Source: a virus (Duplodnaviria; Heunggongvirae; Uroviricota; Caudoviricetes). From it: 64,000 nucleotides of DNA. Position numbers and translations under genes: made by a program. The notes beneath the pieces are model-generated. The model ran no database searches. It was not told the origin of the DNA and saw nothing but the letters and a program-made list of their open reading frames with translations. Location of the stretch: the IMG/VR virus record IMGVR_UViG_3300026966_000012; one strand, 5' to 3'. Shown one piece after another: positions 10,354-40,915 of the stretch (the stretch's first letter is position 1; the number at the start of each line of letters is the position of its first letter).

Positions 10354-10394
10354 ACGGGGCTGACGCCCGGTTTCGCGCGCCGCCCCGCCGCCCG

Positions 10395-10700
10395 ACGACC
10401 CCTGTTTCCACTCCGTCTGGTCCAACGCGGAATAGTAGAGGAAATTATTATTTGCAGAGATCGAGCCCTGAATACAACCCGCCTCAGCGAGGTTCATGGG
10501 CGCTACACGTCGGCGAGTTTTGTGAGGCATGGCTCCTACCCCTTCGAGTTGGCTCACGGCATTCCGAGCGTCGTGTGGACGGTGTCTCCGCGAGGTTCGT
10601 GGGCATCTCAGGAAATGCCCCCTGATGATACGAGAACCCCTGTTTCCCTTCCGCGTGCCGCGTCACGCGAATCCGGCACGCGCCATGCGACGTCGACGTC
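10395..10700. ncRNA. copy B of a conserved roughly 250-300 nt non-coding element (candidate ncRNA or regulatory repeat)
   Basis: Aligns with 1..335 and 14085..14335; core CTCCTACCC..GCTCACGGC, GCRTCTCAGG, CCCCTGTTTCC. Confidence 0.35.
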
Positions 10701-10724
10701 CATCCAGCAGTAACAGCCGTCTTA

Positions 10725-10737
10725 CATATCTATATAC
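10725..10737 (+). promoter_or_regulatory. TATA box of a cassette promoter
   Basis: catatctatatac. Confidence 0.45.
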
Positions 10738-10760
10738 CTGCACCACTCTTAGGATAAGAT

Positions 10761-11138
10761 ATGGGAACCAAAAACCCATCCGAAGCGGAACAGAGCGACG
10801 AGATCCTCCCGGCCCTCGACCACCGCGGACTGACGGGCCACGGCAAGGCCCGACTCGAGGAGAGCGAGCTCGTGACCCCGTACCTCGTGCGGACCCTCCA
10901 GGAGGCGGACCCGGCCATCCTCCGGGCCCTCTCGCAAGTGGCTGACGCCGCCGCCTCGGCCCGGTACGGCCCCATCCAGGCCCAGCTGGCCAAGGACGAA
11001 AGCGCGAGCCGCGAGATCCAGCAGCAGTACTGGAACCAGCTGGACGACGTGAAGGGCCTGTCCCTCCTCTGCACGGAAATCCTGCGCGACGAGCGTGACG
11101 GCGTGCCCAGCGAGGACGACCCGAGACTCGGCTTCTAA
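10761..11138 (+). CDS. hypothetical protein, N-terminus MGTKNPSEAE
   Basis: ATG in hairpin TGGGAACCAAAAACCCA. Confidence 0.55.
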   Translation: MGTKNPSEAEQSDEILPALDHRGLTGHGKARLEESELVTPYLVRTLQEADPAILRALSQVADAAASARYGPIQAQLAKDESASREIQQQYWNQLDDVKGLSLLCTEILRDERDGVPSEDDPRLGF

Positions 11139-11504
11139 CGCCGACCAGCGCACTACCACCAGCAGCGGCTGGCCTGCGCACCGGTTTTCCGCCGTGCCCC
11201 GTCGCCCACGTGACCCTCGTTTCCGCTCCGCCCGCGACTGTCTCGTGCGATCGTCGCGCCCTGCTTGCGTACGTGTCCCCCCACTGTTACGCTCGTCACG
11301 CCTGCGTTCGCGGCCTGTGCTATCCGCGTCCGACCCCTGTTTCATCTCCGCGTGCCAAGGCGCGGCAACCCGGTGGCGTCCCCGTCAGCAAACGGGCCCT
11401 TTCTGCAAGCAATCCGACACTGAAATCTATAAAACGCTGTCTCAAGCCCTCTACACGAGGATTTAGACCAGAACCTTTATATCAAATCAAGTTCAAGAAG
11501 AAGT

Positions 11505-11744
11505 ATGGAATCAAAAATTCCATCCCGGACGGAGAGTGGCGAGAGTGTCGAAATCGCAGTCGGTCACCGAGCGGAGAGCGACGTCATCGCGCGGGCGCTC
11601 AACGAGAAGGCGCGGGAAGCCGAGCTCGAAGCGGAGCGGGCCGGGCCGAAAACGCAGCCCGTGCACGAGCTCGACGCCGCCGTGCTGCGAAGCGCCGCCG
11701 CCGAGTTCGAGCGCGAGTACGCCGAGTGGCGCGAGGAGCGATAG
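11505..11744 (+). CDS. hypothetical protein, N-terminus MESKIPSRTE
   Basis: ATG in hairpin TGGAATCAAAAATTCCA + TCCCGGACGGAG. Confidence 0.5.
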   Translation: MESKIPSRTESGESVEIAVGHRAESDVIARALNEKAREAELEAERAGPKTQPVHELDAAVLRSAAAEFEREYAEWREER

Positions 11745-11746
11745 AG

Positions 11747-11908
11747 ATGCGCCCCGACGTGATCGAGTGGACGGGCGAGGCGCACCTGGTGACGACGGGC
11801 TGTGACGAGTGCGGGCGATCGTTCTCGATCGACGAGGACAGCGTGCGGTGGGCGGACGAGCGCGGACGACCCGTGTTCTGCGACTCGTGCGGGTCGGGAG
11901 GGCTGTGA
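11747..11908 (+). CDS. zinc-ribbon protein (53 aa)
   Basis: CDECG...CDSCG; in frame with track ORF 11210..11908. Confidence 0.45.
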   Translation: MRPDVIEWTGEAHLVTTGCDECGRSFSIDEDSVRWADERGRPVFCDSCGSGGL

Positions 11909-11909
11909 G

Positions 11910-12017
11910 ATGCGGCGGCTGCGGACGGCGCTGCTGGCGGCGAGCGTCGTGACGCGGATCGTCGCGTTCCCGGCGGTGTTGGCTGTCGCGCGGGCCCGAG
12001 CGAGGGTCGTGCGGTGA
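11910..12017 (+). CDS. small hydrophobic peptide (35 aa)
   Basis: MRRLRTALLAASVVTRIVAFPAVLAVA... Confidence 0.3.
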   Translation: MRRLRTALLAASVVTRIVAFPAVLAVARARARVVR

Positions 12018-12229
12018 GTTCCGTGCAGCGGCGGTTGTTCGAGGAGTCGGCGGTCGGGGCGGTCTGGGTCGAAGACAGTGACGGGGGTCGCGCGCTGGTG
12101 ACCGTCGAGCGGCACCCGACGGTGTCGATGGGACGTCTGCTCGAGGCGCTCCGGGGACGTGACGACGTCGAGACGGTGCGCCAGACGACAGCGACGCACG
12201 TCGAGGCGATCGTGCGAGGTGACGCCTGA
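12014..12229 (+). CDS. hypothetical protein
   Basis: GTG start overlapping the upstream stop. Confidence 0.4.
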   Translation: MSSVQRRLFEESAVGAVWVEDSDGGRALVTVERHPTVSMGRLLEALRGRDDVETVRQTTATHVEAIVRGDA

Positions 12230-12309
12230 TGCTGGTGGTACTGCTCGTTGCCCTGCTCGTGGTGCTGTTCGGCGTCTGGCTCGTGCTGGCCGCGGCTACC
12301 GCGTTCTAA
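12229..12309 (+). CDS. tiny hydrophobic peptide (26 aa)
   Basis: MLVVLLVALLVVLFGVWLVLAAATAF; ATGA overlap. Confidence 0.3.
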   Translation: MLVVLLVALLVVLFGVWLVLAAATAF

Positions 12310-12406
12310 CCTCGCGCGACGCGCCGCGGCAACCCGGTGAATCGGTCTAAGGGCTGTTACTACCGCATCACTGATATTTAATACCTCATGCGTCGAAGAT
12401 GAAGAT

Positions 12407-12868
12407 ATGGGACCAAAATCCCACCCAACGGGCGATGAAGCGAGCGATGAAGCGAGCGACGACGTCGTTGTCGTCGATGAGTGTGCGACGTGGGTCGGGC
12501 GACGCGAAGACGTGAGTGAAGACGAAGCCGTCGCCGCGATGAGCGATGTCGAGCGGGCCGTGAAGCGGGTCGCAGACGAGCGATGGGTCGACGTCGTGCG
12601 GGTCGCGATGTGCGACGACGAAGTGCGGGCCGTCGTGAAGATGAAGCAGTGTGAAGGGCCGGGTGCGGGCGCGACGACGTGGGCGAGCGCGTTGTGCGAC
12701 GTCGAGTTGGGCGACGGGCGCGAGCGCGAAGTCGATGTGAGCGTGACGTTGCCGGGCCGTGAAGGGATGTCGGGCGATGTGATGGGCGAAGTCGAAGTCG
12801 ACGGGCGCGAGTGGGAAGTGCGACGTGAAGTGTGGGTCGACGAAGACGGGCGCGAAGTCGGGCCGTAG
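12407..12868 (+). CDS. hypothetical acidic protein, N-terminus MGPKSHPTGD
   Basis: ATG in hairpin TGGGACCAAAATCCCA. Confidence 0.5.
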   Translation: MGPKSHPTGDEASDEASDDVVVVDECATWVGRREDVSEDEAVAAMSDVERAVKRVADERWVDVVRVAMCDDEVRAVVKMKQCEGPGAGATTWASALCDVELGDGREREVDVSVTLPGREGMSGDVMGEVEVDGREWEVRREVWVDEDGREVGP

Positions 12869-12995
12869 CGCGAGCGTGGGCGACGTCGCCGCCGGGCGAT
12901 GTCGTCGCGTGTCGGTTTCGCGCCGCGCCACCGCCCAACCAGCAGTTACAGCCGGAACACGTGCCTATATATCAGTATCATGAGAAGTAAGAAGT

Positions 12996-13334
12996 ATGGA
13001 ACCGAAAAGTTCCCACCGAGCGGAGTACAGTGAGCCGCCCATCGAGCTGGCGAATGCCGTGCGACGCGGCGAGCACTACCTGCTGGGCGACGTTGGAGAG
13101 TTCGTGGTCGACGAGATCGCTGTTGGGTACCCAGTCGAGGAGCGAGACGGCGTGGTCGCCCCGAACCGCGAGGCGTTCGTCACGCGTATCGAGTTTGTGG
13201 CGCCGGGCGAGTGTATCGTGATGGGTCTTGCCGAGCTCGAGGACCGCATCGATCGAACCGATGTGTTGCCCCTGACCGTGCGCGAACGCGATGAGGAGCT
13301 GCACGCGGAGTGGGAGAGCCACGGGCTGCTGTAG
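12996..13334 (+). CDS. hypothetical protein, N-terminus MEPKSSHRAE
   Basis: ATG in hairpin TGGAACCGAAAAGTTCCCA + CCGAGCGGAG. Confidence 0.55.
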   Translation: MEPKSSHRAEYSEPPIELANAVRRGEHYLLGDVGEFVVDEIAVGYPVEERDGVVAPNREAFVTRIEFVAPGECIVMGLAELEDRIDRTDVLPLTVRERDEELHAEWESHGLL

Positions 13335-24192: not shown

Positions 24193-25836
24193 ATGCCCAC
24201 AGCGAACCTCCTGAACACGAAGGCCGGCAAGTTCGGCCAGGTCCCCGGCGCCGCCTCTCGCGCTCGCATGTCCGAGCTCGTCGAGGGGAAAGGTGCGATC
24301 GACCTTCGCGACTACCAGTCCCACTTCGAGCAAGCGTTCGACGATCCCGTCGAAGCACAGATCAAGTTCGAGAACTGGTGTTGCCGAGTCAAAGACACGC
24401 TGATCTCGTCGTCGGGTATCGATCTCCGACCATACCAGAAGGAGTTCTCCGATCGCATCATCAAGTCCGTCGTTCGGAATGATGGACAGACGTTCTTCGC
24501 CGAATGGGCTCGTCAGAGTGGAAAAACGGAGACACTGGCCTCGACGGCCTACGCGGTGTCTGTCCTGTTTGCCCCGATCCGCATCGGTATTTTCGGTCCG
24601 AAGCAGCGACAGGCGCAGATCATGTGGGACCGCGTGAAAGAGCGGTACAACCAGGAGGTTCTCGACGGACTTGGGCTCGAGATCGAGAAGTATGGGGGAA
24701 ACACGTTCAAGCTCTCCTCTGGGTCCGTGGTTCAGGCGATCACGGCTGGCTCGGGGAACATTGAGGGGGAGACATTCGACCTGATCCTCATCGACGAGAC
24801 GCAGAAGATCAGCCGCCGGATGCTCCTTGCGGAGATCTGGCCGATGGGGGCGGAGACCAACGCGACGAAGTGTTGTATCGGAACGCCGCACTTCCAGGAC
24901 TGCTGGTTCCGAGAGCAGCTGGAGCGGCTGAAGGGCACGCCGTTCTGTATGATATACGACTGGCGGACGCCGGCGAAATACTCGAAGAACTACCGGAAAT
25001 CGATCGCCCGCCAGCTGGAGCAGATGAGTCCGGAGTCCGAGGAGTTCCGCACACAGTACGAGCTCGAGTGGATTCTGGAGTCGGGGATGTTCATCACGAT
25101 AGAGGACTGGCGCCGGATGAACCCGCCGCCGCTCATGACCCCGGTCGTGACGAAAGAGGAGCTGTACGACAGCGAGATCAACTCGAAGTGGCAAGTGAGA
25201 GCGGGCGTCGACCTCGCGAAAGAACACGACTCGACTGTTCTGACGGTCACTGGCAAATACTTCGGGTCGTGGGAGCCATACTGGGATGGCTTCTCGGAGG
25301 AGACGATCGTACTCCTCGACGTGGTCGAATTGGAGGGCCTCGAGTACCCGGACCAGATAGACATCATTCAGGAGGAACTGGACCGATGGCACGCCGACGT
25401 GCTTGGAGTGGACTCGACTGGTGTCGGCGACCCGGTGACAGATATCCTGAAGCGAGAGCTGAACCAGCACGTCGAGGGCATCAAGTTCACGTCATCGAGC
25501 AAGCACGACCTGTACAAACACGTCGAGCGGAAGGTGAAGGTCGAGGAGGAATGGGACTACTGCAACTTCGTGATCCCAAAGAAGGTCCGCTCCTACCCAC
25601 ACCTGGAGGTGTCGATGCGGAAGATGGAAGAACAGTGGTTGGAGCTGACGAAAGAGTACAAAGGGTCACGCATGAGTGTTGAGGGACCGGATAGCGGGCA
25701 CGACGACTACCCGGACAGTGCAGCCCTCTCCATGTGGGTGCAGGACGCCGACTACAACATCGACGAGAAGCACATGACCTCGCCAACCCCAGTCCTGGGG
25801 ACGATGAACGGCATCGGGGCGAAGATCGGGTACTGA
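24193..25836 (+). CDS. terminase large subunit
   Basis: Walker A ARQSGKTE, Walker B LILIDETQ, C-terminal nuclease region GVDSTGVGD; 547 aa. Confidence 0.9.
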   Translation: MPTANLLNTKAGKFGQVPGAASRARMSELVEGKGAIDLRDYQSHFEQAFDDPVEAQIKFENWCCRVKDTLISSSGIDLRPYQKEFSDRIIKSVVRNDGQTFFAEWARQSGKTETLASTAYAVSVLFAPIRIGIFGPKQRQAQIMWDRVKERYNQEVLDGLGLEIEKYGGNTFKLSSGSVVQAITAGSGNIEGETFDLILIDETQKISRRMLLAEIWPMGAETNATKCCIGTPHFQDCWFREQLERLKGTPFCMIYDWRTPAKYSKNYRKSIARQLEQMSPESEEFRTQYELEWILESGMFITIEDWRRMNPPPLMTPVVTKEELYDSEINSKWQVRAGVDLAKEHDSTVLTVTGKYFGSWEPYWDGFSEETIVLLDVVELEGLEYPDQIDIIQEELDRWHADVLGVDSTGVGDPVTDILKRELNQHVEGIKFTSSSKHDLYKHVERKVKVEEEWDYCNFVIPKKVRSYPHLEVSMRKMEEQWLELTKEYKGSRMSVEGPDSGHDDYPDSAALSMWVQDADYNIDEKHMTSPTPVLGTMNGIGAKIGY

Positions 25837-26073: not shown

Positions 26074-27807
26074 ATGAGTGACGCAGAAACACCGACAGAC
26101 GACGCGAACGATCCAGTCGAGATCACCGCCGAGGTCGAGTCGGCTGACGGCACAACGGCAACGGTCACCCGATCGGCATCGCTGGCCGAAGTTGTCTCTG
26201 AGCCCCGCGAGATCCTCGAGAAAGATCAGTTCGAGACTGACTTCGACCTGTATGAACGGCTCATAGAGATCGACCCCGAACTGGCTGGGACGATCCGCGC
26301 ACAGGCACAGCTGGCCTCTGGCTTCGAACTAATCCACCCCACTACAGAAGGAGACAGTGAGGAGCCGACGGACGCAGATGTGACCGCACATAACGACTGC
26401 ATGGAGCTGGTCCAGGCCCTGGACCTCGACCTGTCCCAGCCGTCGATGTTCAAGCACATGATCGGGATGGGTAACGACATCTCGAAGATCATCTATTCGG
26501 ATGGCGTTGGCGTGACTGGTCTCCAGTCGCTCCCCCTCCGGTCGGTGACGATCATCGACGAGGACACACAGCCGGGTGTGCAGAACGCAATTGCTGAAGC
26601 GAAAAAGCAGGCGCAGGACGACGAGGAGATCGAGCTCACGACGTACACCGATAACCTCCCGGACGCAGTCGTACAGGATGCCGACTTCTACGTCCTGAAC
26701 GAGGGCAAGAAGGACATGAAGATGATCGAGTCGTGGAAGATCCTTCACCTCGCTGTCGAGCGCCGTGGCAACTGGTTCACCGACAAGTTCGACCGCAAGA
26801 CCTACGGGGTGTGGGGTGCCCCGCGAATCGAGCCGACAAAGTTCGCCCTCCAGGCCAAGCACAACACGCTCACGAACAAGGTGTCGATGGATGACTCACT
26901 GATCGCCCGTGAGATCTACCACATCGACGTCGCCACGCTATTCGGCCACATCAATAACGACGACAAACGAGAGAAGAAAGCGAAAAAGTACGCCTCCGAC
27001 CTCAAGGAGACACTCGAGGGACTGGGTCCCGACGAGAAGCCGATCCTCCCGGACGAAGTGAGCGTCGACGTTCAGGGACCCGAGGGGAAGGCCAAAGAGC
27101 ACGGTGACTTCCTCGACCTGATGAACGATTCCATCATGCACGCACTGACGTTCAACGTCTCTGGCGTCGGGCGTGACGCTGGTGGACCGTACATTGGGAA
27201 CCGGCCGGCGAAGGATACGTCGCTGAACAACGTCCGGCACCTTCGCGAGACGATGGGTCGACAACTCCGGAAGCTGTTCAAGATCCACCTGCTCCTCAAG
27301 CACCCCGAGTGGCGCGAGGATATGGCCGACCCCGAGGACGTCTCGACATGGAAGCTCCGCGATGACATCACGCTCCCCAAAGTCGAGTGGGCGCAGATGG
27401 AAGACGGAGACCTCGAGCGCATCGTCAACGCGGCGACGAAAGCGTACGGGTCGAAGCTGATCACGCGTAACGAGGCCCGAGAGATGTTCGGCCTCGACCC
27501 GATCCCCGACGACGAGATCGACCGCCTGTTCCAGGACCAGTTCATGAACATGGAGATTCAGGACGAGTTCAACCGACGCCAGCAAGAGCGTCAACAGGAG
27601 GATGCCCCCGAACGGGATCAGGATACTGAGGAAGAAGACGAGGAGGATGCAAGTGTTGCTCAGACCGCCTCCACCTCACTACCACCAGAAGCGCAAGAAA
27701 CAGTCGCGAATGAATCGTTCCGATCGGCGCTGGCCACAGGGTTCGATGACGCTGTGTCGAACATGAACGTCGCGCTGAGTCAGGGGGATGCTGATGACAC
27801 TGAGTGA
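26074..27807 (+). CDS. portal protein
   Basis: 577 aa directly after the terminase; acidic C-terminus; size and position typical of a portal. Confidence 0.75.
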   Translation: MSDAETPTDDANDPVEITAEVESADGTTATVTRSASLAEVVSEPREILEKDQFETDFDLYERLIEIDPELAGTIRAQAQLASGFELIHPTTEGDSEEPTDADVTAHNDCMELVQALDLDLSQPSMFKHMIGMGNDISKIIYSDGVGVTGLQSLPLRSVTIIDEDTQPGVQNAIAEAKKQAQDDEEIELTTYTDNLPDAVVQDADFYVLNEGKKDMKMIESWKILHLAVERRGNWFTDKFDRKTYGVWGAPRIEPTKFALQAKHNTLTNKVSMDDSLIAREIYHIDVATLFGHINNDDKREKKAKKYASDLKETLEGLGPDEKPILPDEVSVDVQGPEGKAKEHGDFLDLMNDSIMHALTFNVSGVGRDAGGPYIGNRPAKDTSLNNVRHLRETMGRQLRKLFKIHLLLKHPEWREDMADPEDVSTWKLRDDITLPKVEWAQMEDGDLERIVNAATKAYGSKLITRNEAREMFGLDPIPDDEIDRLFQDQFMNMEIQDEFNRRQQERQQEDAPERDQDTEEEDEEDASVAQTASTSLPPEAQETVANESFRSALATGFDDAVSNMNVALSQGDADDTE

Positions 27808-28654
27808 CCAACTCATGGAGCACGTAGACACACTCCGTTCGGAGCACGAAGAAGCGACCGAGACACACATGCGCGACGCATACGATGATGGGGCGTACCA
27901 GGAAGCAAAGTGGCTTCGTAACCTGGGCGTCCAGGTCACTACCCCCGACCCTGAGCCGGGGGACGAGCTCGATGAAATCCGAGAGCGAGCTGCGTCTCGC
28001 ACCCGGTGGTACGACGATGCGCTGGAAAATGCCGTATTCTCAAGTCTCGAAGAATCGAAGGGTAGCGTCTATGAGACGCTTGCTCGCGTGTTCGACGATG
28101 GGTTCACGATCACTCCCGGAGAAGCGCCGGTCAAGTGGGTCAGTCCCGATGGTTCGGCGTCGTTTGACGACCGCACGGTCGCCTCGATAACGCTCGATCC
28201 TGAGACCTACTTCGAATGGGTGACGGCGGTGGCTATTGTCGAAGCACGGAGTGCCGGCCGCGTATCCGTTCAGCTCGAACTGGGCGAAGTCATGGGTCAC
28301 GTGTGGGTCGACCCGCTCGACGAACAGACGACCCCCATGGCCGCTCGCCTCCACGGTGAAACGTACGGCCGAGACGGCTTCCCGTTTTACCCACCTGTCG
28401 CATACGGCGGGCGGTCGCGTGTGTGGCCGGTGTTCGAAGCATCGTCGACGCCGGCGGCACGGCTCCCGTCGGTAGATACGCTCGTGGGCCAGCGAGAACG
28501 CTGGTTCATCAACTACTCGCGGATGCAGAACGGGGAGCTCCCGGAAGACGACTGGGCGAGCGAGCCTGTGGTCGAGGGAGAATACAACCTGGCGTTCATC
28601 TACACGCAGTTACTCCCGCGAGACCCTGCACAGTACCTCCCCACCAACGAATAA
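27788..28654 (+). CDS. putative head morphogenesis / minor head protein (Mu F or SPP1 gp7-like)
   Basis: Position immediately after the portal; 288 aa. Confidence 0.4.
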   Translation: MLMTLSDQLMEHVDTLRSEHEEATETHMRDAYDDGAYQEAKWLRNLGVQVTTPDPEPGDELDEIRERAASRTRWYDDALENAVFSSLEESKGSVYETLARVFDDGFTITPGEAPVKWVSPDGSASFDDRTVASITLDPETYFEWVTAVAIVEARSAGRVSVQLELGEVMGHVWVDPLDEQTTPMAARLHGETYGRDGFPFYPPVAYGGRSRVWPVFEASSTPAARLPSVDTLVGQRERWFINYSRMQNGELPEDDWASEPVVEGEYNLAFIYTQLLPRDPAQYLPTNE

Positions 28655-28920
28655 TGTCCCCCAACAAACCACTCGCAGACTGGCAAAAGCTGACGATCAT
28701 GGCCCAGGCCCCGTTCCGGGGCAACCGGACTATCGCAAAGCGCGCGGAATGCTCTGTCTGGGCTGTTAGGAAGTACCGCTCGATGATGAAGGAGAACGGC
28801 CACGCCCTCGACGTCGGAGTGACCGAGGAGTACGATGAAGCCCTCGTCTCAGAGGAAGCGATGGAGATTTTCGACACGATCGTCGACGAAGGGCTGAACC
28901 AGGAGCGCGGGAGGATATGA
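28654..28920 (+). CDS. small HTH-like protein
   Basis: Internal ATG (index 77) of track ORF 28423..28920; TIAKRAECSVWAVRKY. Confidence 0.4.
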   Translation: MSPNKPLADWQKLTIMAQAPFRGNRTIAKRAECSVWAVRKYRSMMKENGHALDVGVTEEYDEALVSEEAMEIFDTIVDEGLNQERGRI

Positions 28921-29147
28921 TGCCCCGGGCGAAGGACGTGGTGAGCGTCCTCCTGGTCGGCGCTGTCACGAGCGTGTGGCTCTACCAGACGCTCGACCCG
29001 GCGCTGGCTGAGGACTTCGCTATTAAAGCCCTCGCACTCACGTTCGCGGCTGCTGGTGGTATCACACTGTTCGGTCGTGGGACGATGAGAGCTGCAAAGA
29101 GGGTGGCTGAATCGACACTCCGCCCGCGAGAAAAGACCGAGGAATGA
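28917..29147 (+). CDS. small membrane protein
   Basis: Two predicted TM segments. Confidence 0.45.
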   Translation: MMPRAKDVVSVLLVGAVTSVWLYQTLDPALAEDFAIKALALTFAAAGGITLFGRGTMRAAKRVAESTLRPREKTEE

Positions 29148-29545
29148 GACTCGTCAAACAGGAGAACTGGAACGATTGTGCGCCAGCATGTTTGGCCATG
29201 GTCACTGGCGTACCGATTACCGAAGTCAAAGGGTTCGTTCACGTCCCGACGACACACGCGGAGATGTATGCGTTTCTGTATCATCGGGTCGACGAAGTGA
29301 ATCTGATCCCGATTCTCGACGAGATGAAATTTCGCGACGTGAGAAGGAGAGATGAGCTGTTCCGCGACAATCGCCCGTTCGATGAGCGGACGGTGATCCT
29401 GACCGTGTCTGCGCCGTATCCAGAAGTCTCCTGGCACGCCCTCGTCATCCACGACGGAGAGGTACTGGACCCGAAGCAGGAGTGGAACGACGTTGACGGA
29501 CTCACAGACGTAAGTTGCGTATGGGGATTCGACATCAAGCCCTGA
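29144..29545 (+). CDS. putative papain-like/C39-type cysteine peptidase
   Basis: QENWNDCAPACLAMV (Gln, Cys) and a later WHALVIHDG His. Confidence 0.4.
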   Translation: MRLVKQENWNDCAPACLAMVTGVPITEVKGFVHVPTTHAEMYAFLYHRVDEVNLIPILDEMKFRDVRRRDELFRDNRPFDERTVILTVSAPYPEVSWHALVIHDGEVLDPKQEWNDVDGLTDVSCVWGFDIKP

Positions 29546-29634
29546 GCCTGTCGACTTCCCAGACAGGTGGGAGATAGAAGGGTCGAATCACCAGACAAGT
29601 AAGCTTTTTATCAATGTAACGTATTTGGTAATAT

Positions 29635-30654
29635 ATGCAAGCTGTTGTAGATGCAACTGGAAACGCACCCAGCCTCGCACCCCTGAACGCGCGCCGCTCT
29701 CGATTCAGCCTCCCAGTCGCTGGAGAGACGATCATCGAGCGCGTCGTAAGCGGGCTCGTCGATATCGGTGTTGAACGGATCGCGATTGTCACGGACGAAG
29801 ACTCCATCCGGACGATCTTCGGCGCTGAGCGCGGTGTCGATCGGCTCGGCATGGAGGACGTCGAACTGTGTTTCATCCCGCACTACTACGGCGACACAGC
29901 GTCGAAGACACGCGGTCTGGCGGAAGACACTGGCTTCCTGTGGGTCCGTGGCGATACACTCTACGACTGGGAGACGATTGCCCAACTCGCCGAGCACGAT
30001 GCGGCACTCGGATACGTCCCTCACCCGCACGAGGCGGCCCACGGGAAGCTCCAGATCAACGGTGACGACCTGCGCGCATCGCCCGGCGAATACACACACT
30101 CTGGGGCACACCTGGCCTACGCGTACAAGTTCCCACCCCGAGCTCACGAGTGGGACTACGGAATCGATCCGATGACAGAGGAACTCGCCACGGAGCCCGG
30201 CACAGAGGAGGTCTCGATTCGCTGGACGCCGATCACGAACCCGAGAGACTATCTGCAAGCGAACCTCGAGCGGGCCGGTGCTGGTGGTAGTGAGATGTCG
30301 GTCGATGGAACACTGGTCGGACCCTGCGTGATCGGAGAGGACGTGACCGTCGGACCGGGTGCTGTGGTCGAATCGTCTGTGCTCCTGGACGGTGCGACTA
30401 TCGGTGCCGGATCGTACGTTGGATACTCAGTGGTCGACGAGGGCGTCACTATCGAACAGAACGTGACGACGAATACGCGAGCAGCCAGTGGGGAAACGGT
30501 CGTCGCAGAGTTCGGCGGCGAACGGGTAGACACTGGGATGACGGAGTTCGGGACAGTCTTCGGCCCAGGGGTGACGGTTCAGGCCGGGGCGACGGTCATG
30601 CGCGGGACCACGATCGACACGGGACTGACTGTTGATCCTGGGGAAGTTCGCTGA
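29635..30654 (+). CDS. sugar-nucleotidyltransferase-like protein with a C-terminal hexapeptide-repeat (left-handed beta-helix) domain
   Basis: N-terminal NTP-transferase-like fold; hexapeptide repeats GPCVIGEDVTVGPGAVVESSVLLDGATIGAGSYVG. Confidence 0.65.
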   Translation: MQAVVDATGNAPSLAPLNARRSRFSLPVAGETIIERVVSGLVDIGVERIAIVTDEDSIRTIFGAERGVDRLGMEDVELCFIPHYYGDTASKTRGLAEDTGFLWVRGDTLYDWETIAQLAEHDAALGYVPHPHEAAHGKLQINGDDLRASPGEYTHSGAHLAYAYKFPPRAHEWDYGIDPMTEELATEPGTEEVSIRWTPITNPRDYLQANLERAGAGGSEMSVDGTLVGPCVIGEDVTVGPGAVVESSVLLDGATIGAGSYVGYSVVDEGVTIEQNVTTNTRAASGETVVAEFGGERVDTGMTEFGTVFGPGVTVQAGATVMRGTTIDTGLTVDPGEVR

Positions 30655-30698: not shown

Positions 30699-31025
30699 GT
30701 GTACGTCGAAGACCTCTCATCCGGCTACCTGCTGACGAAGCTCAGCGTCGAACTGTGGGACGAGGACTACGGGGCGATGGACTACGCAGACCACGGAATC
30801 CTGTCTGACGTCGTCTACGACGGTGGCCGCCATCCGTTGTTGATCAAAGGACAGCGACATCGGTCGATGTACATCCCCGTCTACCCCGAATCGTCGGTCC
30901 CACGAGATACGGTATTCGTCCCTGGTGAGGGTCGAGCACCGCAGCCGGAACAGGAACGCATACTTGTCGCAAAACGTGCACATGCCCTCAAGCTACTCAG
31001 GCTGATGAGCCACGACCCCCTCTGA
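30699..31025 (+). CDS. hypothetical protein
   Basis: 108 aa. Confidence 0.4.
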   Translation: MYVEDLSSGYLLTKLSVELWDEDYGAMDYADHGILSDVVYDGGRHPLLIKGQRHRSMYIPVYPESSVPRDTVFVPGEGRAPQPEQERILVAKRAHALKLLRLMSHDPL

Positions 31026-31030
31026 ACCCC

Positions 31031-31066
31031 CGCACGTACATATACACACGCACATATGTACGTGCA
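31031..31066. repeat. perfect 34-36 nt alternating purine/pyrimidine palindrome (Z-DNA-prone)
   Basis: cgcacgtacatatacacacgcacatatgtacgtgca; identical copy at 51791. Confidence 0.6.
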
Positions 31067-31562
31067 AAAGGGTAGAGAGTCTGAAAGGGATTAGGTAGGA
31101 AAGTTTTCATTCCGACGTGTGCCGACCCTGTTTCCAGACCGTAACCCCCCACCTCTCGGGCCTGTAAACCACTCTCCACGCAATCCGGCCGAAAAGGCCC
31201 TCTAAACCGCACTCTCAGAGCTTCTATCCTTTGAATATGCCATGTCTGAGCGACATTCTGGGTATCCAGACTGGTTTCCCCTCACCAACCACTCATGTCC
31301 GATACCGCAGGATAACCACCCTGACACTCGTACCACCAGGAACGAAGGCCCGTATTCCTTCAAGATATACAGAGACAAGCAGAGTGGAATCGATAGACTG
31401 CACTGACCTCCACGCATATACGAAAAACGACAGAACAGAAATCTTTAATATCACATCCCACATATTTCTATTCACCCACAGCTACCCAGTGGGACGTGCT
31501 CCCCGAGTGCGTAGAACGGAGATATACATGAAGGAATGGCGACAGAAGTGGAGGAATAGTCT

Positions 31563-32444
31563 ATGAACGAACGTGCGCAGTCAGCGGCTGGGCCGATTGC
31601 GGTCGTGGTCCTGGTCGGTGCCGTTATCCTTGTCGGAGTTGGTCTCGCGTCGATGCAGACAGTCGACGAGGGACACGTCAAAGTGGTCACCTACAAAGGC
31701 AACGCCGAAGGGACGTTCTACCCCGGCAACTGGTATTTCATCAACCCGATCACGCAGGGGACCGTGTCGGTCGACGTTCGGCCACAGGTGATGCAGATGG
31801 TTGCTGCACAGGGAGAAGGCGAGCGTTCCGAGTTCGACGACTCGATCAAAGTAGTGACTAACGACAACATGCGAGTGCCAGTTGACGTTGCGATCACCTA
31901 CCAGGTCGACGACCCGGTCACCTTCTATGAGGAGTGGAAGACTCACGACCAGGCCCGACAGCGGGCGATCCGACCTGGGTCCCGGGCCGCCATCTACACC
32001 GTTGGTGGTGGGATGTCCGGTACCGAGATCACCAACGACGAGGCACGAGAGCGGATGCGCCTCGCTGTTGCTGAAGAACTGGAAGACCGGTTCGACGGGA
32101 CGGGGCTCGCTCTGATCGCTGTCGACATCCGTGGCGTGTACCCACCCGACTCGTTCCTGGATGCGGCCGAGAACGCCCAGGCCGAGCGTCAGGAGATCAT
32201 CGCTGAACAGCACCGACAGGAAGTTGCCAGAGAGCACGCAGAAACGCTCCGTATCGAAGCCGAAGGTGAGCGAGACGCCCGCCTGATCCGCGCCGAAGCG
32301 TACGAGAACGACGCTGTCCTCGAAGCGATGTACATCGACGAGCTCAGCGAGTCCAACGTGATCTACGTACCGGTCGGTAACGATGGCGTGCCACTGTTCA
32401 TGGACGTCAGCGACGACGAGAACAGTACAAGCGGGAGTCCGTAA
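31563..32444 (+). CDS. SPFH/band-7 (prohibitin/stomatin-like) membrane protein
   Basis: N-terminal TM segment; SPFH domain with a coiled-coil EA-rich tail. Confidence 0.85.
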   Translation: MNERAQSAAGPIAVVVLVGAVILVGVGLASMQTVDEGHVKVVTYKGNAEGTFYPGNWYFINPITQGTVSVDVRPQVMQMVAAQGEGERSEFDDSIKVVTNDNMRVPVDVAITYQVDDPVTFYEEWKTHDQARQRAIRPGSRAAIYTVGGGMSGTEITNDEARERMRLAVAEELEDRFDGTGLALIAVDIRGVYPPDSFLDAAENAQAERQEIIAEQHRQEVAREHAETLRIEAEGERDARLIRAEAYENDAVLEAMYIDELSESNVIYVPVGNDGVPLFMDVSDDENSTSGSP

Positions 32445-32447
32445 GTC

Positions 32448-32627
32448 ATGGCTCTCGCGGTCGTGGGCCTCCTGCTCGTGTGGGTGTCTCTGTGCATCGT
32501 TACGTTCGTCGCCTATCGGATGTACATGCGCCACCGCGACCGGAAGCACGAGGAGCGTATCAAACAGCTGGAGACGCAGCAAACGCTGTTCGAGAACGAC
32601 GAGCTGTTCGACGACGAGGACCTGTAA
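32448..32627 (+). CDS. small membrane protein partner of the SPFH protein (59 aa)
   Basis: MALAVVGLLLVWVSLCIVTFVAY, then a charged tail. Confidence 0.4.
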   Translation: MALAVVGLLLVWVSLCIVTFVAYRMYMRHRDRKHEERIKQLETQQTLFENDELFDDEDL

Positions 32628-32788: not shown

Positions 32789-33601
32789 ATGCAAATCAAA
32801 CAAATCGCAGGCACGCCGCACCCCGAGCGACTGGTGAGTCTGTGTGCACGAAACGACTATCGAGCTGATGGCGTCATCGACCACTCATTCGCCGAGATCA
32901 TGGCGGGTGTGAAAGTGGACGACGACGTCGTCGACGATCTCCGTGAGGAGTGGTTTGACGACGACGATGTTGCACGGGACGACCCGTGGGATGCGATGCC
33001 AGCCGAGTTCAGAACAGAAGCAGAACAACGATCGCTCCTCAAGCATACCATGAACGAGGGCCACTGGGGCGTGTTCGAGCACCCACAGGCGACGCTCGCG
33101 CTCGAGGGTATCACCCGGACATCGATGGCGCAGATCACGCGCCACCGACACTTCACGTTCGACATCATGTCCCTCCGATACGTCACACTCGACTTCGACT
33201 CGGTCGAGGAGATGAAGGAGCGATTCGCCGAGCCTGATGAGATCACGGCCGAGGAGGTCGTGAGTCGGAACGGCGTCGAGACCATCGACATGGACCCCGA
33301 CGAGCGCGAGGAGATCTGGTGGGAGACGATCGCCCACACCGCCCACACCTACAACACACTCGTGGACGCTGGCGTCCCTCAGGAAGAAGCGCGCAAAGTC
33401 CTCGGTATGGGAACGAAGGTCAACATCATGATGTCTGGGAACGCCCGGGCCTGGATGCACCTTCTGAACATCAGAGGGAAAGCGAACGTCCAGGGAGAGG
33501 CCCGAAACATCGCTGACGGCGTGATGGGCGAGATGAAGGAGTGGATGCCGTACACGTTCGAGCGGTACGACGACATGCTCCCACTGAGACTGAACCCATG
33601 A
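32789..33601 (+). CDS. thyX: FAD-dependent thymidylate synthase ThyX
   Basis: ThyX signature RHRHFTFDIMSLRY (RHRxxSxxxxSxRY-like). Confidence 0.85.
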   Translation: MQIKQIAGTPHPERLVSLCARNDYRADGVIDHSFAEIMAGVKVDDDVVDDLREEWFDDDDVARDDPWDAMPAEFRTEAEQRSLLKHTMNEGHWGVFEHPQATLALEGITRTSMAQITRHRHFTFDIMSLRYVTLDFDSVEEMKERFAEPDEITAEEVVSRNGVETIDMDPDEREEIWWETIAHTAHTYNTLVDAGVPQEEARKVLGMGTKVNIMMSGNARAWMHLLNIRGKANVQGEARNIADGVMGEMKEWMPYTFERYDDMLPLRLNP

Positions 33602-38695: not shown

Positions 38696-39696
38696 TGGAC
38701 ATCGACGAGATCTACGAGCAAGAGATTGACGCTCGCGAAGACATCGTCGAGGCGTGTCCCATCGACATCTACGTCGCGTCGATCAACCCCTACTGGGCAT
38801 ACCCGAACAAGCTGATGTCGTACTACGAGACGCGGCCCGGCGTTCGTGATTCGTGTCGCCAGGTGATCGTCGACTCTGGGAAGACGCGTATCGGTAACAT
38901 GAGCGAGATCATCCAGGCGGCTATCGACATGGATGCTGACCAGGTGATACCGCCGGACCCGACGCCATACACAGACGGGTACGACGAGCTCACGCCCCAC
39001 GGCCACGCCGAGGAACAGGCACAGCACTACTGGGAGTGGTATCGAGAAGACGTCGACGGGACGATTTTGCTCCCGATCCACCCGCCGTATCAGCGGTTTA
39101 TTGAGGAGCTCGGTCGGTGGGACCCTGGGCACATACTCGGGTACGAGGACGACCCGTACTTCGACTACCCGAGTACGCCTGAAGCTGAAGAACGCTACCT
39201 CGCCGGTGTCGAGCACTACTCGCTCACGTACGACCTGATCGGTGCCGCCGATGGCGTTGCGGTCGGGAGCCTCCTGGGCCTCGACGTCTTCGAGCAGATC
39301 ACGGCACTCAAGCAAGTACGAGAGGCGGTCGGGCCGTACAAACACGTCCACGCACTTTCGCCGACCCCTCGGCCCGAGATGCTGCTGTTTCTCCGGCGAA
39401 ACCCTGGGATTATCGACTCACTCGACCTGTCGACGCCCGAGACGGCGCCGGCTGGGAACAAGCTTCCCGACCTGCGGTTCTATCCGCAGATGAAGTACCT
39501 GTTCCCACCAGCCCATGCGAACATCAGCCCCGTCAGAGGTGCAGCGTCGACGATGATCGCGCTCATGCTCAACTTCTGGCTGAGTGAGTGGGTCAAAGAG
39601 GAGGAGTTGATGGAGATGCTCGAGGAGCACTACGACTGGGTCGAGCGTGAGCAGACCGCCCAGACCGGCCTGGAGGCGTTCGGACATGGCGACTAA
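38695..39696 (+). CDS. TGT/DpdA-like protein, degenerate paralog
   Basis: VIVDSGKTRIG (degenerate DSGG box); C-terminal half aligns with the 39686 ORF. Confidence 0.4.
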   Translation: MDIDEIYEQEIDAREDIVEACPIDIYVASINPYWAYPNKLMSYYETRPGVRDSCRQVIVDSGKTRIGNMSEIIQAAIDMDADQVIPPDPTPYTDGYDELTPHGHAEEQAQHYWEWYREDVDGTILLPIHPPYQRFIEELGRWDPGHILGYEDDPYFDYPSTPEAEERYLAGVEHYSLTYDLIGAADGVAVGSLLGLDVFEQITALKQVREAVGPYKHVHALSPTPRPEMLLFLRRNPGIIDSLDLSTPETAPAGNKLPDLRFYPQMKYLFPPAHANISPVRGAASTMIALMLNFWLSEWVKEEELMEMLEEHYDWVEREQTAQTGLEAFGHGD

Positions 39697-40915
39697 CCTC
39701 GTCGACGACGGTCATCGTCCCACGCCGGAACGAGACACGTTCCGTCACGTCTGGGCGAGAGAACGCGGGCCCTGGGTCGTCCTTGAGCGCATCAAAGGGA
39801 CGCGAATGGAGAGCGGTGAGATCGTCGCTGAGTGCGATGACTACCTGGAGGCACTCGCGTTCGCTGTCGATTCCGAGACAGAGGACTGGGTTATCACGGA
39901 GATCGCTGGTCAGTGCTGCAACTGTGGACAGCTGGTTGTCGTCGACGAGCTCGCTGAGGAGCCGACGTGTCCACACTGCAACGACGTCCTCTGGCTGGCC
40001 GCCGAGCAGCGACGGTTGGCCGAGTTTGCCCGCGACCGGCTGGCGTTCGATATGTACTGGGGTGTTGCCTCTGGCGCACAGCGGAAAGCGATCCGTGTCC
40101 TTGCGCACGGATTCGACCATCGCGAGCCAGACAATCTCAACATCATGCTGAACTACGCGACGCAGAATAATCAGCTCCTGACCGAGAAGGGACTGGAGCT
40201 CATGACGAACGTCGAGACCCTGTTTATCGACTCTGGCGGCTACTCGTTCTTCGAGCGAGAGGGTGGATACGACACTTCAGACTGCGAGTACCTGCGATAC
40301 ATCGCCCGCGTGCAACCTGATTACTTCGCACTCAGGGATTACCCGTGTGAGCCTGACATCCTGGATGCACGCGACACGACCGTCCAATACCACCAGCAAC
40401 GGACGACAGAGAAAGCCCAGATCCTGCTCGATATGCTTGATGACTTTGCGATCACGGCCACACCAGTTGCGGTCGTGCAGGGGTGGTCGCCCGATGATTA
40501 TCGGTCACACCTCCGGCAACTCTATCGCGCTGGTGTCCTCGACGAGGTGGAGCACATCGGCATTGGGACCCTCTGTGGTCGCGAAGACGTTGCCCAGATC
40601 GCGACCATCGTCGAGGCCGTCAGAAAGAGTGTTGGACCGGACTTCAAAATACACGGGTTCGGTGTCAAGCGAGAGGCGTTAGAACGCCCGGACGTCGTCG
40701 AGTCACTCGACTCGGCCGACACACTCGCGTACAGCATGAAGCCGATGTACGATTCAATCGCTACTGGTGGTATGGTCGCGAACACGTGGAAACACGAAGC
40801 GCGAGGGTTCCTGGATTACTATGCCACGATCCACGAGTCGCTCAGACGAATCGAGCACGGGGAAGCCGACGAAGATATAGTCGCCCAACAGACGCTTGCA
40901 TCATATGGTGACTGA
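39686..40915 (+). CDS. tRNA-guanine transglycosylase (TGT)/DpdA-like protein with an N-terminal zinc ribbon
   Basis: FIDSGGYSFFE matches the TGT substrate-binding box DSGG[FY]Q; CCNCGQ...CPHC. Confidence 0.5.
   Translation: MATNLVDDGHRPTPERDTFRHVWARERGPWVVLERIKGTRMESGEIVAECDDYLEALAFAVDSETEDWVITEIAGQCCNCGQLVVVDELAEEPTCPHCNDVLWLAAEQRRLAEFARDRLAFDMYWGVASGAQRKAIRVLAHGFDHREPDNLNIMLNYATQNNQLLTEKGLELMTNVETLFIDSGGYSFFEREGGYDTSDCEYLRYIARVQPDYFALRDYPCEPDILDARDTTVQYHQQRTTEKAQILLDMLDDFAITATPVAVVQGWSPDDYRSHLRQLYRAGVLDEVEHIGIGTLCGREDVAQIATIVEAVRKSVGPDFKIHGFGVKREALERPDVVESLDSADTLAYSMKPMYDSIATGGMVANTWKHEARGFLDYYATIHESLRRIEHGEADEDIVAQQTLASYGD

What the first reader, a model, noticed from the sequence alone, without database searches (positions are those of the whole stretch)
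29144..30654. Sugar-nucleotidyltransferase with hexapeptide-repeat domain beside a C39-like cysteine peptidase inside the morphogenesis region
ORF 29635..30654 combines an NTP-transferase-like N-domain with a long left-handed beta-helix (GlmU or G1P-thymidylyltransferase architecture). In a virus this suggests synthesis of an activated sugar for virion glycosylation or DNA/sugar hypermodification. The upstream ORF 29144..29545 has the Gln...Cys(ACLAMV)...His layout of C39 or papain-like peptidases, and could be a maturation or lysis-related peptidase.
Basis: partly seen in the sequence, partly recalled or inferred. Interest (0 to 1): 0.55.

Follow-up and report, generated by a model that had tools for sequence, protein, structure and literature searches.

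The report
Viral C39 peptidase and dead GlmU-like protein
A salt-loving archaeal virus carries a small, intact-looking cysteine peptidase next to a protein that keeps the shape of a sugar-activating enzyme but has lost nearly all of that enzyme's catalytic residues, so it probably does not make activated sugars as its database label suggests.

Summary
Both ORFs are real and at the stated coordinates. They lie in a haloarchaeal myovirus-like genome distantly related to HGTV-1, at the end of the terminase-portal gene block and about 22 kb from the capsid and tail genes.

ORF2 (29635-30654) has the ST0452/archaeal-GlmU fold (pLDDT 91). In all 8 known clade members the nucleotidyltransferase residues and the acetyltransferase catalytic His are replaced or deleted. 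The GxGTR arginine survives in one member only. Both domains are still under purifying selection (dN/dS about 0.1), and the gene always follows terminase and portal.

ORF2 is therefore best read as a repurposed pseudoenzyme, not an NDP-sugar synthase (RefSeq's label for the homologue). My preferred mechanism is a non-catalytic, GMPPA/KONJAC-like modulator of host NDP-sugar synthesis; this is inference only. It is a new variant of a known kind and of moderate interest.

The parts
29144..29545 (+). ORF1, a 133-aa stand-alone C39-type (papain-like, clan CA) cysteine peptidase. Putative catalytic residues are Gln6 (29159-29161), Cys12 (29177-29179), His98 (29435-29437) and Asp109 (29468-29470).
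29635..30279 (+). ORF2 N-domain (residues 1-215). It has a Rossmann-like sugar-nucleotidyltransferase fold with a remodelled, non-canonical cleft.
   Evidence: Foldseek matches ST0452, VTC1, GMPPA/B and AGPase. hhalign against cellular GlmU-type enzymes gives probability 100% and E=1e-47. The canonical Lys23, GTAD, EKP, RGExE-TD loop and DxG are lost in 8 of 8 clade members, and the GxGTR Arg13 in 7 of 8 (P0005 keeps it). dN/dS is 0.08.
30298..30654 (+). ORF2 C-domain (residues 222-339 plus the stop codon). It is a left-handed beta-helix about 45 residues shorter than in cellular homologues and lacks the acetyltransferase catalytic His.
   Evidence: Pfam Hexapep, Hexapep_GlmU and LbH_EIF2B hits. 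'HLSYVGD' has become 'AGSYVGY', and the His is absent in 8 of 8 members. dN/dS is 0.11.
29605..29619 (+). A TATA-like T-rich box (TTTTTATC) and a 'TGTAA' motif lie 16-30 nt upstream of the ORF2 ATG. This is a probable separate promoter for a leaderless ORF2 mRNA.
   Evidence: A T-rich box and TGTAA are conserved upstream of the ORF2 homologues in all 6 loci compared. The pattern is rare in the window: 4 matches against 0.1 expected. Promoter function is inferred, not tested.
28917..29147 (+). A 76-aa small protein with two hydrophobic segments. Its stop overlaps the ORF1 start (ATGA). It is context only and a possible membrane partner of ORF1.
   Evidence: Sequence and overlaps are. It is conserved in L001 and L003. 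Analogous small hydrophobic proteins occupy the same position in L005, L006 and L022.
28654..28920 (+). An 88-aa highly conserved small protein (MSPNKPLADWQK...) between the 288-aa post-portal ORF and the TM protein. It is part of the same tightly overlapping gene string that ends with ORF1.
   Evidence: It is 98%, 70%, 68%, 57% and 62% identical in L001, L003, L004, L005 and L006. Overlapping start and stop codons are seen.
30699..31025 (+). A DUF5802 protein of 108 aa, the most constant downstream neighbour of ORF2.
   Evidence: Pfam DUF5802 at E=3.4e-11. It is present after the ORF2 homologue in L001, L003, L005, L006 and L023-25.

Best explanation
ORF1 is a cytoplasmic, stand-alone C39-type cysteine peptidase with an intact Gln-Cys-His-Asp site. 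It is the last gene of the tightly overlapping portal gene string, and its start is coupled to a small two-segment membrane protein. Its family points to cleavage after a Gly-Gly or small-residue site in an unidentified viral or host protein. It is an accessory function, not an essential one.

ORF2 descends from the haloarchaeal bifunctional sugar-1-phosphate nucleotidylyltransferase/acetyltransferase (archaeal GlmU, ST0452 type). It keeps the two-domain fold but has lost the catalytic residues of both activities. It is nevertheless conserved under purifying selection as a fixed gene behind terminase and portal in this virus group.

It therefore most likely acts without catalysing either ancestral reaction. 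My preferred mechanism is inferred, not shown. ORF2 would oligomerise through its beta-helix and modulate the host's NDP-sugar (UDP-GlcNAc-type) pyrophosphorylase, either by co-assembling with it or by binding a sugar nucleotide in its remodelled cleft. This is how the inactive paralogues GMPPA and KONJAC act on GMPPB and VTC1.

The fold, residue loss, selection and synteny are shown here. Non-catalytic action, the partner and the ligand are inferred.
For: Fold and descent:
- TIGR03992 at E=1e-25.
- The best cellular hits are haloarchaeal GlmU-type enzymes.
- AF2 pLDDT 91 and Foldseek ST0452 at E about 1e-17.
- hhalign probability 100% over 337 columns.

Residue loss, seen in two independent alignments:
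- Lys23, GTAD, EKP, the RGExE-TD loop, DxG and the HLSYVGD His are absent in 8 of 8 members; the GxGTR Arg13 is absent in 7 of 8.
- Only the GD of 'NGD' is kept.
- PMC9168903 names the equivalent VTC1 residues (Gly9, Thr12, Arg13, Lys23, Asp111, Glu195-Lys196, Asp219) as ligand-binding or catalytically critical.
- PF00483 is absent from all clade members but present in all cellular homologues.

Not a decaying gene:
- dN/dS is 0.095 against L001 (N-domain 0.08, beta-helix 0.11), similar to portal at 0.13 and ThyX at 0.10.

Fixed position:
- The gene sits behind terminase and portal in every locus with enough flank.

Precedent:
- Inactive GMPPA assembles with GMPPB through beta-helix contacts, and KJC1/2 up-regulate VTC1 (PMC9168903).
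- Foldseek also matches GMPPA/B, VTC1-KJC2 and eIF2B.

ORF1:
- Searches support the C39 assignment.
- Searches show it is dispensable.
Against: No biochemical data exist, and loss of canonical residues does not prove inactivity.

Seven of 8 members keep a set of clade-specific polar residues around the former cleft (R105, D107, Y162, K165, H171, W173, Y175). These could form a new catalytic or ligand site.

The complete relative NZ_CP058532.1 encodes intact GDP-mannose-4,6-dehydratase-like and NDP-sugar dehydrogenase genes. The virus group therefore does handle nucleotide sugars, and an upstream synthase would fit that pathway.

Nothing here tests hetero-oligomerisation with a host enzyme. The beta-helix is only about 29% identical to host enzymes.

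The position next to portal would also suit a virion or assembly protein.

The family is small, with 8 distinct sequences.

The ORF1 substrate is unknown, and no double-glycine leader substrate or ABC transporter is present.
Confidence: 0.5

Rival explanations
1. ORF2 is an active NDP-sugar synthase (sugar-1-phosphate nucleotidylyltransferase, with or without acetyltransferase activity). It would supply activated sugar for virion or host glycosylation or for DNA modification.
For: The fold and family are correct. PGAP names the homologue 'NDP-sugar synthase'. The related complete genome encodes intact GDP-Man-4,6-dehydratase-like (Pfam E=4e-62) and UDPG/GDP-Man dehydrogenase (E=3e-31) genes that would need an NDP-sugar input. 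The Asp of 'NGD' is retained in 7 of 8 members.
Against: The PK Lys, the base-binding GTAD, EKP, the sugar-phosphate loop, the second metal Asp and the acetyltransferase His are all missing in 8 of 8 members, and the GxGTR Arg in 7 of 8. PF00483 is not detected, and TIGR03992 scores 90 bits against a cut-off of 292. No glycosyltransferase was found in the window or annotated in the complete relative. The host already supplies NDP-sugars. The DNA-modification gene present is DpdA, which acts through 7-deazaguanine and not a sugar.
Confidence: 0.12
2. ORF2 is a structural or assembly protein of the virion, for example a trimeric beta-helix head or neck appendage or an assembly factor. In this view an enzyme fold was recruited for its rigid trimeric helix.
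For: It holds a constant position immediately after the terminase, portal and 288-aa ORF block in all loci. The catalytic residues are lost while the fold is retained under purifying selection. Few polar residues are invariant across all 8 members.
Against: ORF2 is separated from the portal gene string by an 89-nt gap with its own promoter-like element. Its downstream neighbours are DUF5802, SPFH and ThyX, not structural genes. The capsid and tail module is about 22 kb away. The N-domain is as constrained as the beta-helix, which is unexpected if only the helix mattered. There is no PHROG structural annotation; phrog_5353 has unknown function.
Confidence: 0.17
3. ORF2 has acquired a new catalytic or ligand-sequestering function in the remodelled cleft, for example a different nucleotide-dependent reaction or a 'sponge' for a nucleotide-type metabolite or signal.
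For: Clade-specific polar residues line the former cleft and are conserved in 7 of 8 members: R105, D107, Y162, K165, H171, W173, Y175 and the motif AYAYKFPxxAHEWDYGxDPM. N-domain dN/dS is 0.08.
Against: The motif is not kept in the most divergent member, P0007. No polar residue unique to the clade is invariant in all 8. ORF2 matches no PADLOC defence or anti-defence model. No candidate ligand is known.
Confidence: 0.2
4. ORF1 is the capsid-maturation (prohead) protease or the lysis enzyme of the virus.
Against: ORF1 is absent from the L006/L022 lineage and has a stop at the Cys codon in L005, although terminase, portal and ORF2 are kept there. The known prohead proteases of HK97-fold viruses that I can recall are not papain-like. 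ORF1 has no signal peptide or wall-binding domain. Distant relatives sit among small accessory genes of bacteriophage-like contigs.
Confidence: 0.15

Closest known systems
ST0452 of Sulfolobus tokodaii and archaeal GlmU (TIGR03992; PDB 2GGO, 5Z09, 5Z0A): bifunctional sugar-1-phosphate nucleotidylyltransferase/acetyltransferase
   Same: Both share the two-domain architecture of a Rossmann-like N-domain plus a left-handed beta-helix. ST0452 is the best sequence and structure match. Haloarchaeal members are the closest cellular homologues and the probable source of ORF2.
   Different: The catalytic and substrate-binding motifs of both activities are lost (a GxGTR arginine survives in one of 8 members). 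About 45 residues (2-3 helix coils) and the 10-residue sugar-phosphate loop are deleted. ORF2 is not linked to glmS as the cellular genes are. Its score is far below the family cut-off.
Non-catalytic paralogues of NDP-sugar pyrophosphorylases: GMPPA (with GMPPB), KONJAC1/2 (with VTC1), GlgD, and eIF2B gamma/epsilon
   Same: They have the same fold and impaired or absent catalysis, and they act through beta-helix-mediated assembly with an active partner (PMC9168903). They appear among the Foldseek matches as 7d72, 8yre and 9hve. The top Pfam match of ORF2's helix is LbH_EIF2B.
   Different: ORF2 is not orthologous to any of them. It is an independent, virus-borne derivative of the GlmU branch. 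No partner has been shown. GlgD and eIF2B are cited from my own knowledge and were not tested here.
C39 double-glycine peptidase domains of bacteriocin/AMS-PCAT ABC transporters: ComA PEP (5XE8), PCAT1 (8VP3, 7S5J) and LahT150 (6MPZ)
   Different: ORF1 is stand-alone, with no ABC transporter and no recognisable leader-peptide substrate. It is virus-encoded in an archaeal setting. The sequence is below the Pfam cut-off (14 bits against 22).
PeiR, PeiW and PeiP pseudomurein endoisopeptidases of methanogen viruses and proviruses
   Different: Haloarchaea have no pseudomurein. ORF1 lacks wall-binding repeats and is a closer match to C39 domains.

Membership tests
Sugar-1-phosphate nucleotidylyltransferase (Pfam PF00483; archaeal GlmU TIGR03992) | Two-domain fold: Rossmann-like nucleotidyltransferase domain followed by a left-handed beta-helix | tested here: met
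   AF2 pLDDT 91.4. Foldseek ST0452 at E about 1e-17, TM up to 0.78. hhalign probability 100%.
Sugar-1-phosphate nucleotidylyltransferase (Pfam PF00483; archaeal GlmU TIGR03992) | N-terminal signature loop G-x-G-T-R-(L/M) and the downstream Lys ('PK') that bind the NTP phosphates | tested here: not met
   The query has 'ATGNAPSL' and 'SRF'. Arg13 is lost in 7 of 8 clade members and Lys23 in 8 of 8. The role of the equivalent VTC1 residues is described in PMC9168903.
Sugar-1-phosphate nucleotidylyltransferase (Pfam PF00483; archaeal GlmU TIGR03992) | Base- and sugar-binding motifs (Q..GTAD, EKP, NAG, RGE-E-TD loop) and the two metal- or phosphate-binding Asp residues | tested here: not met
   GTAD, EKP and NAG are replaced, the RGE-E-TD loop is deleted, and the DxG Asp is replaced by Pro or Gln. 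Only the 'NGD' Asp is kept, in 7 of 8 members.
Sugar-1-phosphate nucleotidylyltransferase (Pfam PF00483; archaeal GlmU TIGR03992) | Score above the curated family cut-off | tested here: not met
   TIGR03992 scores 90.5 bits against a cut-off of 292.1. PF00483 is not reported. NTP_transf_3 scores 22 bits against 27.
Sugar-1-phosphate nucleotidylyltransferase (Pfam PF00483; archaeal GlmU TIGR03992) | Pyrophosphorylase activity | not testable with these tools
   This needs an enzyme assay.
Hexapeptide (LbH) acetyltransferase domain of the GlmU type | Hexapeptide-repeat left-handed beta-helix | tested here: met
   PF00132 scores 37.4 bits against a cut-off of 27, and Hexapep_GlmU 34.5 against 23.3. 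The model shows regular short strands over residues 226-339.
Hexapeptide (LbH) acetyltransferase domain of the GlmU type | Catalytic His in 'H-L-S-Y-V-G-D' (ST0452 His308 by my recollection of the literature; invariant His in the 5 cellular homologues aligned here) | tested here: not met
   The position is Ala in 6 clade members, Phe in one and Pro in one. The following Asp is also lost, and 'RRK' is not conserved.
Non-catalytic regulatory paralogues of NDP-sugar pyrophosphorylases (GMPPA/KONJAC-like) | Same fold with catalytic residues impaired, retained under selection | tested here: met
Non-catalytic regulatory paralogues of NDP-sugar pyrophosphorylases (GMPPA/KONJAC-like) | Physical assembly with, and regulation of, an active paralogue | not testable with these tools
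   No multimer prediction or interaction data were available. This is the inferred step.
Peptidase family C39 (Pfam PF03412; clan CA) | Papain-like fold closest to the bacteriocin-processing peptidase domains | tested here: met
Peptidase family C39 (Pfam PF03412; clan CA) | Gln (oxyanion), Cys, His and Asp in this order, with the Gln six residues before the Cys | tested here: met
   Q6, C12, H98 and D109 are invariant in 11 of 11 sequences.
Peptidase family C39 (Pfam PF03412; clan CA) | Score above the Pfam gathering cut-off | tested here: not met
   The window protein scores 14 bits against a cut-off of 22, matching residues 3-21 only. Eight of 11 relatives give C39 as their top hit, best E=1.2e-5. 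P0064 carries a precomputed PF03412 hit.
Peptidase family C39 (Pfam PF03412; clan CA) | Association with an ABC exporter and a double-glycine leader substrate | tested here: not met
   ORF1 is stand-alone at 133 aa. No ABC transporter appeared among the window ORFs scanned. A candidate Gly-Gly site in the ORF2 linker was tested and rejected.
Peptidase family C39 (Pfam PF03412; clan CA) | Cleavage after Gly-Gly | not testable with these tools
   This needs biochemistry.

The most novel reading that the evidence does not exclude
ORF2 is a virus-encoded, doubly inactivated GlmU paralogue. It co-assembles through its beta-helix with the host's GlmU-type or NDP-sugar pyrophosphorylase, or senses its product, and re-tunes the host's UDP-GlcNAc/NDP-sugar supply during infection. 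Possible purposes are to feed virus-encoded sugar-tailoring enzymes or to alter S-layer glycosylation and so block superinfection. This would be the first viral counterpart of the GMPPA/KONJAC type of pseudoenzyme regulator.
Probability: 0.2. Interest if true: 0.7.

Novelty: new variant of a known kind. Interest (0 to 1): 0.45.

Why it matters
If the reading is right, a whole lineage of haloarchaeal myoviruses keeps a captured host sugar-activation enzyme whose two active sites have both been dismantled while the fold is preserved. Viral pseudoenzymes that act on host metabolism by binding rather than by catalysis are little explored in archaeal viruses.

It also corrects a misleading automatic annotation: RefSeq labels the homologue WP_179171713.1 'NDP-sugar synthase'. 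Inferring virion glycosylation or sugar-based DNA modification from that label would be unsafe.

The cultured strain Halobaculum halophilum Gai3-2 carries a complete relative as a 148.9-kb circular episome, so the question can be tested experimentally.

ORF1 adds a rare, minimal, stand-alone C39-type peptidase family shared by archaeal and bacterial viruses. Its substrate is unknown.

Tried and rejected
1. Annotated phage relatives. megablast and tblastn of the region, ORF1 and ORF2 against INPHARED gave no match. Only the terminase matched, and distantly: Bacillus BCD7 at 31%, and HGTV-1 only weakly.

2. ORF1 cleaves the ORF2 interdomain linker at Gly-Gly (AGG 217-219). The GG is present in four members with an intact ORF1 and absent where ORF1 is lost. 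However, P0004 (L023) has an intact ORF1 and no GG, so I rejected the idea.

3. ORF2 and DUF5802 were captured together from a host glmU locus. Cellular glmU genes sit next to glmS, not DUF5802. DUF5802 has no literature, no PDB relative and no other plasmid hit. Rejected.

4. Co-occurrence of ORF2 with the dehydratase and dehydrogenase genes on viral contigs. The result was inconclusive, because IMG/VR returned only one ORF2 contig and only unrelated dehydratase contigs.

5. Sequence-only PDB searches for ORF1, both single sequence and profile, found nothing. Fold comparison was needed.

6. PADLOC defence models gave no hits for ORF1, ORF2 or their neighbours.

7. The ORF2 upstream motif as a general viral promoter. 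It is not recurrent in the window.

8. A GTDB genome scan found no further ORF2 relatives. The family stays at 8 distinct sequences.

9. Literature searches for ST0452 and GlmU residue assignments were unproductive. I used the VTC1 paper and the cellular alignment instead.

10. The 482-aa insert after the ORF2 homologue in L001, and other variable neighbours, had no informative Pfam hit.
Full report
**Observation.** Both ORFs are present exactly as described: 29144..29545 (+, 133 aa) and 29635..30654 (+, 339 aa). The window has about 60% G+C, and nearly all genes are on the + strand and encode acidic proteins.

**Genomic setting.** The window contains the following genes:
- A large terminase at 24193-25836, 31% identical to Bacillus phage BCD7 TerL; two Halogranum-virus records are among the 49 matches but rank below the 12 listed.
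- A portal at 26074-27807 (PHROG portal families).
- DpdA, a class II ribonucleotide reductase and ThyX.
- A tail sheath at 59561-60916.

The closest complete relative is 'plasmid unnamed3' of Halobaculum halophilum Gai3-2 (NZ_CP058532.1, 148,857 bp, circular). It encodes a terminase, a head-tail adaptor, a tape measure, baseplate J and ParA/ParB, so it is a myovirus-like episome. IMG/VR lists another relative as a viral genome. The 'virus' premise therefore holds.

The 'morphogenesis region' premise holds only in part. The two ORFs follow terminase and portal, but the genes after them are DUF5802, SPFH and ThyX, and the scaffold-like, probable capsid and tail genes begin about 22 kb downstream.

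**Gene organisation.** The portal, a 288-aa ORF, an 88-aa conserved ORF, a 76-aa protein with two hydrophobic segments, and ORF1 form a string with overlapping stop and start codons. ORF2 follows after an 89-nt gap. That gap contains a T-rich TATA-like box and a TGTAA motif, both conserved upstream of the ORF2 homologues in six loci. I infer that ORF2 is a separate transcription unit, but this is not shown.

**ORF1: family and residues.** Pfam gives only a sub-threshold C39 hit on residues 3-21 (14 bits against 22). The family is very small: two proteins in the word-indexed search, and nine in the exhaustive HMMER search of 1.84 billion representatives.
- In an 11-sequence alignment at 26-72% identity, Gln6, Cys12, His98 and Asp109-Pro110 are invariant.
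- Eight of the 11 members independently give Peptidase_C39 as their top Pfam family.
- The nucleophile is Cys12, in register with the C39 profile and six residues after the Gln.

**ORF1: structure.** The AF2 model (pLDDT 82, pTM 0.81) is most similar to C39 double-glycine peptidase domains.
- The archaeal-virus lytic peptidase PeiR follows at 11.5, then other papain-like enzymes.
- Foldseek agrees.

ORF1 is therefore a stand-alone C39-type cysteine peptidase with an intact catalytic set, under purifying selection (dN/dS 0.12).

**ORF1: function.** ORF1 is not essential to this virus group.
- In L005 the codon at the Cys position is TGA.
- Two independent contigs of another lineage (L006 and L022) lack the gene altogether, while terminase, portal and ORF2 are retained.
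- Distant relatives sit among small accessory genes in bacteriophage-like contigs.

This argues against an essential prohead protease. A late accessory or lysis-related function remains open.

**ORF2: homology.** ORF2 is homologous along its full length to the archaeal bifunctional sugar-1-phosphate nucleotidylyltransferase/acetyltransferase.
- TIGR03992 scores E=1e-25, though only 90 bits against a cut-off of 292.
- The best PDB sequence and structure match is ST0452.
- The AF2 model has pLDDT 91.4.
- hhalign against 16 cellular homologues gives probability 100% and E=1e-47 over 337 columns.

**ORF2: a distinct viral clade.** The seven closest database relatives (34-84% identity, 335-352 aa), together with ORF2, form a clade that lacks the PF00483 hit carried by every cellular homologue.

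**ORF2: loss of catalytic residues.** Two independent alignments, MAFFT and hhalign, give the same picture for the clade:

| Cellular motif | Viral clade |
|---|---|
| LAAGEGTR(M/L) | DATGNAPSL and variants; Arg lost in 7 of 8 |
| PK Lys | lost in 8 of 8 |
| Q..GTAD | absent |
| EKP and NAG | replaced |
| 10-residue RGE-E-TD loop | deleted |
| DxG Asp | replaced by Pro or Gln |
| HLSYVGD (acetyltransferase) | AGSYVGY; His lost in 8 of 8 |
| GD of 'NGD' | kept, in 7 of 8 |

The VTC1 structure paper names the equivalent residues (Gly9, Thr12, Arg13, Lys23, Asp111, Glu195-Lys196, Asp219) as ligand-binding or catalytically critical (PMC9168903). The viral beta-helix is also about 45 residues shorter than the cellular one.

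**ORF2: still under selection.** The gene is not decaying. dN/dS against L001 is 0.095 (0.08 for the N-domain and 0.11 for the helix), similar to portal (0.13) and ThyX (0.10). The gene holds the same position behind terminase and portal in every locus with enough flank.

Clade-specific motifs are conserved in 7 of 8 members (FLxVRGDxLYD and AYAYKFPxxAHEWDYGxDPM). No clade-specific polar residue is invariant in all eight.

**Interpretation of ORF2.** What ORF2 does instead is inferred. This superfamily has repeatedly produced inactive paralogues that assemble with active enzymes through the beta-helix and regulate them: GMPPA with GMPPB, and KONJAC with VTC1 (PMC9168903). These also appear among the structural matches. 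On that precedent I favour a non-catalytic modulator of host NDP-sugar synthesis.

The complete relative encodes well-preserved GDP-mannose-4,6-dehydratase-like and NDP-sugar dehydrogenase genes (Pfam E=4e-62 and 3e-31). These lie outside the part that is syntenic with the window. They show that the virus group does handle nucleotide sugars. That fits a regulator of sugar-nucleotide supply, but it also keeps alive the rival that ORF2 is a very divergent synthase.

Other rivals are a structural or assembly role, suggested by position, and a new ligand or catalytic site in the remodelled cleft. None can be excluded with the tools available.

**ORF1 and ORF2 are not an obligate pair.** ORF1 is missing or disrupted in some lineages that keep ORF2. 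The one specific link I could test, C39 cleavage at a Gly-Gly in the ORF2 linker, failed on P0004.

**Comparison with known families.** ORF1 meets the structural and catalytic-residue criteria of C39. It does not meet the Pfam score cut-off or the transporter and leader-peptide context, so it is a new stand-alone viral member of a known kind.

ORF2 meets the fold criterion of the ST0452/GlmU family and fails its catalytic-motif criteria. It should not be filed as a member enzyme. It resembles the non-catalytic paralogue class in principle but arose independently.

A review of metabolic genes in archaeal tailed viruses does not mention either gene type (PMC8651126).

**Verdict.** This is a new variant of a known kind, of moderate interest (0.45).

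Noticed in passing
window 31026-31562 (also L001 12837-13379 and L003 11556-12129): A noncoding gap of about 540 nt after DUF5802 is conserved (75% mean column identity) between genomes whose synonymous sites are saturated. It contains an invariant 'ACCCACAGCTACCCAGTGGG' hairpin, a second hairpin whose stem differs between genomes but still pairs, and an invariant 'GGAACGGAG'. There is no tRNA or Rfam match. It may be a structured RNA or a regulatory element.
   Followed up: partly
L005 about 9220-9258 (Logan ERR14693532_77361): The ORF1 homologue has TGA exactly at the catalytic Cys codon (MELVRQDEAAD*MAASLSMVTG), so gene callers start it downstream. This is probably a nonsense mutation or pseudogene. 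To my knowledge haloarchaea have no selenocysteine machinery.
   Followed up: partly
window 8300-13050: A repeated intergenic cassette occurs in at least 4-6 copies. It contains 'GCGCGGCAAMCCGG', 'CCATGCGACG', an AT-rich 'TTACATATCTATATAC' promoter-like box, and a start codon embedded in a palindrome, 'ATGGGACAAAAATCCCA'. As a result several small ORFs begin MGQKS, MGTKNP, MGPKSHP or MESKIP.
   Followed up: partly
window 39647-40915: A DpdA homologue (Pfam E=7e-20) suggests 7-deazaguanine modification of the viral DNA. The relative NZ_CP058532.1 has one too. ThyX (32789-33601) and a class II RNR with a TSCPD domain (47246-50236) lie nearby.
   Followed up: no
NZ_CP058532.1 (L009-L012), Halobaculum halophilum Gai3-2 'plasmid unnamed3': This record, deposited as a plasmid, is a complete 148.9-kb myovirus-like episome. 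It encodes a terminase, tape measure, baseplate J, head-tail adaptor and ParA/ParB. It also carries intact GDP-mannose-4,6-dehydratase-like and NDP-sugar dehydrogenase genes at 31.8-34 kb.
   Followed up: partly
L001 3394-6153 and L005 3625-6297: The terminase large subunit of two relatives carries an intein with a LAGLIDADG endonuclease (919 and 890 aa). The window's terminase (547 aa) has no intein.
   Followed up: no
window 31563-32627: An SPFH/Band-7 protein (Pfam E=1e-26) is followed by a 59-aa single-pass membrane protein. Together with the 76-aa membrane protein upstream of ORF1, they give the 28.9-32.7 kb stretch a membrane or envelope flavour. SPFH is present in L003 but absent in L001.
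   Followed up: no
window 1994-3658: A 554-aa protein has an Hsp90/GHKL-type ATPase domain (HATPase_c_3). PMC8651126 lists an Hsp90-like chaperone as a feature of HGTV-1 and HSTV-2, which supports a distant relationship to that group.
   Followed up: no
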